Origin: Raja brachyura | Taxonomy: Eukaryota | Direction: 5' to 3' | Assembly: GCA_963514005.1 (NCBI GenBank) | Contig: OY740787.1 | Span: 70,990,001-71,054,000 of the forward strand | Length of the DNA: 64,000 bases | In this document: positions 15,701-18,700 of the stretch, one piece after another | Layout of the letters: the number at the start of each line of letters is the position of its first letter | Numbering within the stretch: the first letter of the stretch is position 1 | The notes under the pieces: generated by a model | Told to the model about the DNA's origin: nothing | The model's database searches: none | What the model saw: only the letters and a program-made list of their open reading frames with translations | Translations under genes and position numbers: made by a program

Positions 15701-18700
15701 TATACAGTTTTAATTTTTATAAAATGTCACTACACTACGGTAAAAATGCACAGTACTGATTTTAATGATCCTTGCTTAAATGCTATTCTGAGGTTTCATT
15801 AAGATTATTATGATTAGAACAACAAACGGTAATGTCTTTGCCCTAGTGGTATATGTATGTGAATGTTATTTGTGGTCAAACTGTCTATACCCTGCACTTC
15901 AGGTGTTTCAAAAATTAATCTCTTGCTCCGCATAAGATCATTAGGTCATAAGTGATTGGAGTAGAATTAGGCCATTCGGCCCATGAAGTCGATTCCGCCA
16001 TTCAATCATGGCTGATCTATCACTCCTCCCTATCCCCATTCTCCTGCCTTCTTTCTCCCCATAACCTCTGACACCCGTACTAATCAAGAATCTATCTATC
16101 TCTGCCTTAAATATATTCACTGAGTTTGCACGTGGCAAAGAAATTCCACAGATTCACCACCTTCTGACTAAAGAAATTCCTCCTCAAGTGTTCAAGAAAG
16201 TGCAAGAGACATTTATTGTCATGCACCAACTGGTACAGTGAAATTTGGGTTACCATACAGTCATACGAATAAAAGAGAACACTACACACGTTAGACTTTA
16301 ACATAAACATCCCCACACAGCAGAATCAAAGTTTCCCACTGTGAGAAAAGGCACCAAAGTTCAGTCATCCTCCTCATCTCCTTCCTAAAAAAATGTTCTT
16401 TAATTCTGAGGCTATGACCTCTAGACCTACACTCTCCCACTAGTGGAAACATCCTCTCCACATCCAATCTATCCAAGCCTTTCACTATTCCGTACGTTTC
16501 AACGAGGTCCCCCCTCATTCTTCTAAACTCCAGCGAATATAGGCCCAGTGCCATCAAACACTCCTTTGTTTCGATGCCACATTTCTATTTCACTGTTGTC
16601 AAATTTCAGATCAGTACAAATATAGTTTTACAGGGCACCTAACTCTGAACAAAATTTGTAGATTGAAGTGGCATATATTAAATAATTTATATAAAGATAG
16701 CAAATTACATAAGTACATTTAGGACATTTAATCTCAAAATGATGGGTCTGCTAATGTTTCTGTAAACCATAAACACCATCATTACGATAAACAAATATAG
16801 TTAGATCATTTTAGTATTATATAACAGATTTCCTTATTTTGTTTTCTGTGGATGTGAATTAATTTAAACAGAAACTACGGAATTAAGTGGTAAAATATGT
16901 TTAATTCTATTTGATGGAAGGACCTTATTTTGCAGAAAAATGTCAGTGCCTTTACCTTCAGACTTTGAAAGCATTTTCATATTAAGAAAATATATTTTTG
17001 TAAAATAATTTTTATTCTTAAATTATACATAGCTACTGTATAAGCTGTTGACAACAAGAGTCAAGTGCTTTTGGACGAGGTTTTCAATTATTACCTTTCA
17101 CATAAAATGATCTTTAGAGGTATAGACATCATGGTTTTATGTGCAAAACAAGAATAACAGAAAATTATTGAAATATATAGAAGTGTTTTTGGGCCAGACT
17201 GGTAGATTGAGAGATGATGATTCGCTTGGTTCAGATGGCTGGAAGTAGTGTTCACAATCTCAAAAGGTTTAGTCGTTGAATATATGATCTTATTGGATTA
17301 GGGGAAGCATGAGAGGATGAATGAGATTTTACTGATTTCATTTTCCAAAATTTTATGATTGTAAGTTTGTTTTCATTTTTAATCGAACACTTTCCAATGA
17401 GTCGAAAAGTCAACATTACATTTTAATTGCTGCATTTAAGTGATTAAAAATACCAGAGTGTACAATGGATTATGCAAACATAAAAGTGACAATATAAAAT
17501 ATATATCAACATACTCTGTCACTGGGCTCAAGTAACGTGTTCTTCAAGAACCATTGGACTTCAATTCCCTCATACGATAGTTCACAATCAAAAGAAGCCG
17601 AATGTCCAGCAGTTACAGTCACATCCTTGAGGGGCCGGAGTAAGCTGATCACTCGAGCTTTAGATGAAAAAGACATTTGATATCTCTTAGCTTCAGGGGA
17701 ATAGTCCCTTTAATTTTGTTTTCAGCAGACTACAACCCTTTAATTATCTACATGAACAAACTGAATTGAAACCCTATAGTGCACATTCCATAACCTGCAA
17801 AACAACACAACCAGCAGCAAGTCTGAAGCACATCAGAGTTATTATCATTGTTACTTTAAGGCCTAGTGCCTAAAATAACACCAGAAATGGTTAAATAACT
17901 GTGTCCAGCTTCTGACTGCCATTTTCAAAAGTATCAAGTGCAGTTTTTCTTGACTAGTAACAGTAATGATGAATTAACGTTAATCACATATCTACCTTTG
18001 ACCCTCAAATGAGCACTGGTTTTGGCATTAGCAGCCTGGAATTCAACTTCACCCGCTTGATCCATTTGCACGTTGTAGAGTATAAGAAAATGTTTTGTAC
18101 TTTCCTTTTTAATTTCACAGTCCTGAATTGGAATTAAACAAAGTCAAAGTGTTAAGGAAGGAATACAAAAAGGTAAAACTTCAATAAAAACAATTTCCAG
18201 CATCGGCATCCCTTGCATCTCTGCAAAACGTCACCAATTGCTAATGTTAAAACTTACAGCAGTAGGACGCAATTTCTCCCCCTTCAACTTCCAATTGCCA
18301 TGTACATCATCTTCAGAAATTTCAGTCTCAAAACGTGCAATTTCTGTTTCTGTGACTTCAACACTGTACAGTGGACGCAATATCTTAATATCACGCTCTG
18401 AAACACAATAAAATGAAATCAAACATTTCACGCAAATTTGTTTAAAATACTATTATTTATTTTCTTAATGGTTCTGAGTGCTATCCGTGAACAACTCCAA
18501 AAGACACTGATTAATAGGCTTTACAATGGTATGCAGCTATTTTTACCTTCAATGTTTAGTGTGGCTGATGTGTTATCAGAGCCACAGTCACAAGAATATT
18601 GCCCCTGATCATTCTTCATAGCTCGTTTCATGATCAATATTCGTTTCCGACCATCTGTTTTTATCAGAATATTCTTTGAAAGAATCAGTTCTTTTTCATC

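What the first reader, a model, noticed from the sequence alone, without database searches (positions are those of the whole stretch)
17658..17995. Probable Cronos-type internal titin start: in-frame intronic ATG upstream of the ARVI exon
Seen: 19 nt upstream of the acceptor the intron reads ATG TCT TTT TCA TCT AAA G|CT CGA GTG, giving MSFSSK-ARVISLLRP in frame. This is the only AAG acceptor among the 33 Ig/Fn3 exons here; the rest are YAG. The 338-nt intron is TE-free. It holds an MCAT (CATTCCA, 17784-17790), MEF2-like AT elements (17869-17879, 17889-17899), a one-mismatch CArG (CCAGAAATGG, 17881-17890) and a duplicated AATTAAAGGG TATA-like word. Established: zebrafish, mouse and human make a short Cronos titin from an internal promoter in the distal I-band near exon 240. 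Counting from the PEVK/I84 exon as 225 (recalled numbering) makes this exon 240. Inference: Cronos predates the split between cartilaginous and bony fish. The Kozak context is weak (C at -3).
Basis: partly seen in the sequence, partly recalled or inferred. Interest (0 to 1): 0.72.

Follow-up and report, generated by a model that had tools for sequence, protein, structure and literature searches.

The report
Cronos titin start in a ray
Inside the giant muscle gene titin of a ray-like cartilaginous fish, the intron that zebrafish, mice and humans use to start a shorter titin called Cronos ends in the same in-frame start codon, so this second start is likely as old as jawed vertebrates, although its RNA has not been seen in this group.

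Summary
Titin runs on the minus strand. The 338-nt intron (17658-17995) is spliced in relatives' transcripts and has an in-frame ATG 19 nt before its AAG acceptor, the only AAG among 33 acceptors. Published Cronos primers (PMC4720518) map onto the flanking exons, so this is the Cronos intron. Zebrafish has the same ATG-TCT...AAAG intron end, and an elephant shark database model starts at the equivalent Met. The genome's haemoglobin is closest to a stingray's. An in-frame ATG alone is weak evidence, since 6 of 33 acceptors have one within 7 codons; the shared position, leader and rare acceptor carry the case. The listed promoter motifs are mostly at chance level. One A/T 10-mer is shared with a teleost-type intron, which is only suggestive. 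No transcript start was seen, so promoter activity is inferred (about 80%). My searches found no paper reporting Cronos in cartilaginous fish. This scan noted the same feature in two other cartilaginous-fish genomes. Verdict: a new member of a known kind, of modest interest.

The parts
17658..17995 (-). Titin intron orthologous to human intron 239 / zebrafish ttna e115-e116 (the Cronos intron); 338 nt, GT..AG, no repeat
   Evidence: Primer mapping; spliced out in relatives' contigs; no repeat hit
17658..17676 (-). In-frame ATG (17676-17674) and six intron-encoded codons: predicted Cronos N-terminal leader, which is also the pyrimidine tract and acceptor of the full-length transcript
   Evidence: Sequence; zebrafish primer gives the same type of end; elephant shark model P0145; teleost-type locus L006
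17658..17660 (-). AAG acceptor, formed by the last two bases of the leader's Lys codon plus the first base of the next codon
   Evidence: 1 of 33 acceptors; used in spliced contigs
17515..17657 (-). Exon equivalent to human exon 240 / zebrafish e116 (first half of a distal I-band Ig domain)
17996..18122 (-). Upstream exon, equivalent to human exon 239 / zebrafish e115
14627..14750 (-). Next exon (241-equivalent), second half of the same Ig domain
17870..17879 (-). A/T-rich 10-mer, MEF2-like but one base short of the consensus; the identical 10-mer lies in the teleost-type Cronos intron; candidate promoter element
   Evidence: Shared with L006 1200-1209; alignment of the whole intron not significant, 62 of 500 shuffles
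17890..17899 (-). Second A/T-rich element of similar form
   Evidence: Sequence; no canonical MEF2 match; no conservation seen
17881..17890 (+). One-mismatch CArG-like word; chance level
17784..17790 (+). MCAT-like word; chance level
17706..17745 (-). Two copies of a 10-nt word 30 nt apart (17745-17736, 17715-17706); role unknown, probably within the predicted 5' UTR
17748..17753 (-). Upstream start-stop (ATG then TAG) 96 nt before the exon; would lie in the 5' UTR if the start is 110 nt upstream as in zebrafish

Best explanation
This is the cartilaginous-fish copy of titin's Cronos intron, ending in a conserved in-frame ATG that likely starts a short titin from a predicted internal muscle promoter. 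The last 19 nt would do two jobs. In full-length titin RNA they are the pyrimidine tract and AAG acceptor and are spliced out (shown, in relatives). In a transcript that starts inside the intron (inferred; probably within about 130 nt of the exon, because further upstream more ATGs would precede it) they are read as a 6-residue leader. The leader's last Lys replaces the Lys that ends the upstream exon, so translation runs on in frame. [quoted passage not shown] Coding use would explain why the ATG and the rare AAG acceptor are kept in lineages some 400-450 million years apart (dates from PMC12241362 and recall), while the Ser/Phe/Pro-rich middle of the leader follows from the pyrimidine tract.
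For: Orthology from published primers. The zebrafish Cronos primers read ATG-TCT at the start and AAAG at the intron end, 7 codons, as the paper states. The elephant shark model A0A4W3IPV7 starts at a Met 7 residues before the same exon, has Lys at the junction, and is 83% identical over 90 aa. Teleost-type DNA L006 has the ATG 7 codons upstream, an AAG acceptor and A at -3. Of 150 related proteins held, 117 have the nearest Met 5-7 residues upstream and 32 have it 11-12 residues upstream, matching the published 7 (zebrafish) and 12 (mammals); 1 is a spliced full-length piece. Of 166 such ORFs, 154 have Ser after the Met and 145 have Lys, Gln or Glu at the junction, which implies an AAG acceptor (many are close kin). 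In the window only this 1 of 33 acceptors is AAG. A close relative (DNA run X13, 4 differences in 1001 nt) keeps the ATG and has A at -3, the strong Kozak base (one contig). Clade: the titin exon shares a two-residue column only with the 2 elephant shark entries among 168 proteins; an own-genome alpha-globin exon is closest to stingray haemoglobin among single chains (87 bits against 69 or less).
Against: No capped 5' end, open chromatin or protein was shown. An in-frame ATG within 7 codons occurs at 6 of 33 acceptors. The protein hits are biased: ORF callers list only ORFs with a start codon, a first 'M' may be GTG or TTG, the query held the leader, and no control search with another exon was run. 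Kozak context is weak in this genome (C at -3, T at +4). The leader is one codon shorter than in zebrafish and elephant shark. MCAT and CArG are at chance level and no canonical MEF2 site is present. The intron as a whole is not significantly similar to the teleost-type intron (62 of 500 shuffles), and one control intron scores the same. The elephant shark model is an automatic prediction whose start may simply be the nearest ATG. In one search, 5 of 24 intron-type ORFs lack a Met within 11 residues (all look like the second teleost paralogue).
Confidence: 0.8

Rival explanations
1. Cronos is ancestral to jawed vertebrates, but in this lineage the promoter or start codon has decayed and the ATG is a relic or is barely used.
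For: C at -3 where a close relative and the teleost-type loci have A; leader one codon shorter; chance-level motifs.
Against: ATG, Ser codon, frame and the rare AAG are all kept, and the intron is short and free of repeats while nearby introns carry them. The -3 change is recent or polymorphic, since the relative differs at only 4 of 1001 nt.
Confidence: 0.13
2. The ATG is a chance feature of an A/T-rich intron end, and the resemblance to zebrafish comes from splice-site constraint alone.
For: 6 of 33 acceptors have such an ATG; pyrimidine tracts produce Ser/Phe codons by themselves; the protein search is biased towards ORFs with a start.
Against: Splicing favours YAG (32 of 33 here) and does not favour purine-rich ATG or AAAG. 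Both features occur together at the one intron named beforehand by experiments in three species, in this genome and in elephant shark. A rough joint chance is 6/33 x 1/33, about 0.006, per genome (my arithmetic, assuming independence).
Confidence: 0.04
3. The ATG is used without an internal promoter, by re-initiation on full-length transcripts that retain the intron or after RNA cleavage and recapping.
For: The AAG acceptor is weaker than YAG (established splicing knowledge), and the retained intron carries stops that would end the upstream frame.
Against: In zebrafish, mouse and human the start was mapped by 5' RACE, with H3K4me3 and DNase peaks in human. Relatives' main contigs are spliced here.
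Confidence: 0.03

Closest known systems
Zebrafish ttna (ttn.2) Cronos promoter and isoform (Zou et al. 2015, PMC4720518)
   Same: Same intron; ATG followed by a Ser codon; AAAG intron end; short in-frame leader ending in Lys.
   Different: Leader of 6 rather than 7 residues; the start site is mapped in zebrafish (110 nt upstream) and unknown here; function was tested in zebrafish and not here.
Human and mouse Cronos (TTN intron 239; PMC4720518, PMC7478974)
   Same: Orthologous intron before exon 240; in-frame intronic Met.
   Different: 12-residue leader and a start about 256 nt upstream; at that distance the 5' UTR here would hold five upstream ATGs, so a shorter UTR is more likely.
Elephant shark (Callorhinchus milii) UniRef100_A0A4W3IPV7, an unnamed 98-aa Ig-domain model
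   Same: Starts at the equivalent Met, runs through the same Ig domain, 83% identical over 90 aa.
   Different: 7-residue leader; an automatic model that ends after one domain and is not labelled Cronos.

Membership tests
Cronos internal start of titin | Lies in the intron orthologous to human 239-240 / zebrafish ttna 115-116 | tested here: met
   Primer mapping and translation; exon count from my 33-exon model
Cronos internal start of titin | In-frame ATG near the 3' end of the intron, open into the exon | tested here: met
   17676-17674, six codons
Cronos internal start of titin | Same intron end also serves as acceptor for full-length titin | tested here: met
   Joint 17657-17996, skipping 338 nt, in 3 of 3 RNA-type runs of relatives
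Cronos internal start of titin | Open reading frame downstream through the A-band and M-band | tested here: inconclusive
   Open to the window edge; relatives' contigs hold about 63 kb beyond this exon; the rest of the own gene was not read
Cronos internal start of titin | Transcription start site inside the intron | tested here: inconclusive
   Only assembled contigs of relatives were available, and these cannot show starts
Cronos internal start of titin | Promoter chromatin (H3K4me3, DNase or ATAC) over the intron in muscle | not testable with these tools
   No chromatin data here
Cronos internal start of titin | A shorter titin protein that begins with the leader | not testable with these tools
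   Needs gels, an antibody or mass spectrometry
Canonical MEF2 site | YTA(A/T)4TAR | tested here: not met
   None of 21 window matches lies in the intron

The most novel reading that the evidence does not exclude
Cronos is an ancestral jawed-vertebrate isoform, active in rays, sharks and chimaeras. Its dual-use intron end (leader codons laid over the pyrimidine tract and a rare AAG acceptor) has been held for some 450 million years, a shared non-canonical A/T element drives it, and the second teleost titin paralogue keeps a looser version of the same start.
Probability: 0.55. Interest if true: 0.5.

Novelty: new member of a known kind. Interest (0 to 1): 0.37.

Why it matters
Cronos is one of the proposed reasons why titin truncations past exon 240 cause worse heart and muscle disease (PMC4720518, PMC5068190, PMC11128207), but it is described as conserved only in zebrafish, mouse and human (PMC12854356, passage). 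A conserved start in both branches of cartilaginous fish would date it to the common ancestor of jawed vertebrates and argue that it is a selected part of sarcomere assembly. The short, repeat-free ray intron is also a compact template for finding the promoter's core elements. It extends the range of a known isoform and is not a new mechanism.

Tried and rejected
No RNA holder was listed on record for this DNA. Seven of the 10 runs guessed to be RNA were laid (X1, X4, X5, X9; X2, X3, X7), all from related organisms and all as contigs. None covered the intron; X9 did not cover the exon either. Contigs drop short or rare 5' ends, so this is not evidence either way. One search was swamped by repeats in the next intron. 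Promoter motifs as evidence: rejected as chance level. The duplicated word as a TATA box: not favoured, as it lies too near the exon for a zebrafish-like start. Similarity of the whole intron to the teleost-type intron: not significant. A second shared 10-mer lies about 1.5 kb upstream in L006 (12 of 500 shuffles) and is taken as chance. The PDB holds no structure of this Ig domain. The protein atlas gave only generic Ig clusters. Three of 5 metagenome loci (L008-L010) matched only 15 residues and were not used. The second globin exon was nearest to cytoglobin and gave no clade information. A look-up of earlier notes by sequence found nothing. Two exon ends were off by one base and were corrected. 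Zaunbrecher et al. 2019 (PMC6911360) is not held. No shark or ray protein other than the two elephant shark entries was recognised. A control search with another ATG-bearing exon was not run.

Full report
What is there. The window holds the PEVK, distal I-band and I/A-junction part of titin on the minus strand. I modelled 33 Ig/Fn3 exons from 27133 to 616; joined, they give 2462 residues without a stop. The intron in question is 17995-17658. Spliced contigs from related organisms join 17996 to 17657, skipping 338 nt with GT..AG ends, in 3 of 3 RNA-type runs, and pieces in X1 and X5 agree. The ATG at 17676-17674 is 19 nt before the exon and in frame; it is the only in-frame ATG after the last upstream stop. 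The acceptor is AAG, 1 of 33; the other 32 are CAG (22) or TAG (10). The intron shows no repeat similarity, unlike 2 of 3 control introns, and a DNA run laid a single contig over it.

Is it the Cronos intron? Yes. Zou et al. 2015 (PMC4720518; I read the abstract, part 2 of 3 of the Results, the Discussion, further passages and all of Supplementary file 1) mapped a start 110 nt before zebrafish exon 116 with a Met 7 residues upstream, and 256-257 nt before human exon 240 and mouse exon 223 with a Met 12 residues upstream. I scanned 9 of their primers against the window. The guides for exons 114, 115 and 116 have their best match on the two exons before the intron and the exon after it. The exon-113 guide ties between the expected exon and a paralogous one. 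The other five primers did not have their best DNA match at the expected place; the three mammalian exon primers had it among their top four. Their translations fit the expected exons, including the end of exon 239. The zebrafish Cronos primers span the start codon and show ATG-TCT at the start and AAAG at the intron end, as here, with one more codon.

Is the ATG more than chance? Alone, no: 6 of 33 acceptors have an open in-frame ATG within 7 codons. The case rests on conservation at a place named in advance. An elephant shark model (UniRef100_A0A4W3IPV7) starts at a Met 7 residues before this exon, with Lys at the junction; a second model shows the spliced full-length junction. A teleost-type genomic locus, L006, has the ATG, A at -3 and an AAG acceptor; its clade is my inference from the match to the zebrafish leader. 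Among 150 proteins held, the nearest Met is 5-7 residues upstream in 117 and 11-12 in 32, and one is a spliced piece. Among 166, Ser follows the Met in 154, and the junction residue implies AAG in 145. In the unbiased library search, 25 of 133 new proteins matched this exon: 19 have a Met 5-11 residues upstream, 2 have it at 21-24, 3 start inside the exon and 1 is spliced. The 5 exceptions resemble the second teleost paralogue (my reading of the sequence type).

Which animal? The genome has 2.7 Gb and one match to this exon at high identity. The exon shares a two-residue column only with the two elephant shark entries among 168 proteins. An own-genome alpha-globin exon scores 87 bits against the chain of PDB 1cg5/1cg8 and 69 or less against other single chains; 1CG8 is stingray haemoglobin (PMC6279032, passage). 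So this is a cartilaginous fish, probably a ray or skate, and with the chimaera both main branches carry the ATG.

Promoter motifs. They are present as described but weak. MCAT: 27 found, 26.5 expected. One-mismatch CArG: 89 found, 125 expected. Both together fall in 4.3% of equal-sized tiles. No canonical MEF2 site lies in the intron. It anchors the best local alignment, but 62 of 500 shuffles score as high and one control intron ties; it is a lead from one sequence. The Kozak context is weak here, but a very close relative has A at -3.

Mechanism. Shown: the orthologous position, the in-frame ATG, use of the acceptor in relatives, and conservation of the ATG. Inferred: a muscle promoter in the intron; a start probably within about 130 nt of the exon, since ATGs lie at 96, 129, 134, 176, 191 and 265 nt; translation from 17676; and a product without the Z-disc anchor and spring. 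Relatives' contigs hold about 63 kb beyond this exon, which would make about 20,000 residues (my estimate). By analogy with zebrafish, where Cronos is abundant in skeletal muscle and partly rescues upstream truncations (PMC4720518; PMC12854356 and PMC7912658, passages), it would help build the A-band in developing muscle. The exon and the intron both end in AAAG (4-nt ambiguity), so the leader rebuilds the normal inter-domain Lys. That is the simplest reason for the rare acceptor.

What is known. Searches listed no paper on Cronos in cartilaginous fish: 0 papers hold Cronos, titin and chondrichthyan together, while searches listed only 25 of 501 and 20 of 1,506 hits. The elephant shark titin paper (PMC12241362) and the titin evolution paper (PMC12198301) do not use the word Cronos (passages); the first cites Zou 2015. 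I did not see their supplements, which could mark the site. Passages of PMC7478974, PMC5068190, PMC11827849 and PMC11128207 gave background only. Subscription journals were not searched. Two earlier notes of this scan report the same feature in other cartilaginous-fish genomes; they are unchecked AI notes and are not counted as support.

Verdict. A real, conserved feature: most likely the Cronos start of a ray (0.8). It is a new member of a known kind; interest 0.37.

Noticed in passing
L007:93-118; proteins P0235, P0242, P0245-P0248, P0252, P0254, P0258, P0265: A second teleost-type titin paralogue (probably ttn.1/ttnb, my inference) also has an in-frame ATG 5-11 codons before this exon, with a CAG acceptor in L007 and leaders of variable length; 5 similar ORFs lack a nearby Met. 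Cronos was mapped only in ttna in the passages I read.
   Followed up: partly
window 19278-19277 and 5267-5266 (minus strand): Two of the 33 titin donors are GC rather than GT.
   Followed up: no
window 17679: The -3 Kozak base is C here and A in a close relative's contig; it is the only difference inside the intron in that run.
   Followed up: partly
window 17820-17843 and 17894-17917: An imperfect inverted repeat (24-nt arms, 75% complementary) encloses the A/T elements and the CArG-like word; probably chance.
   Followed up: no
window 31027-28679 and 33329-32787 (minus strand): A 783-codon Glu/Lys/Pro-rich open frame and a 181-codon acidic repeat-like frame in the PEVK region: unusually large candidate PEVK exons.
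   Followed up: no
P0145 (UniRef100_A0A4W3IPV7): The elephant shark database already holds an unnamed model that starts at the Cronos-equivalent Met.
   Followed up: yes
window 14751-17514 and other long titin introns: High-copy repeat fragments (LINE-like by recalled resemblance) fill the long introns, for example 15088-16560.
   Followed up: no
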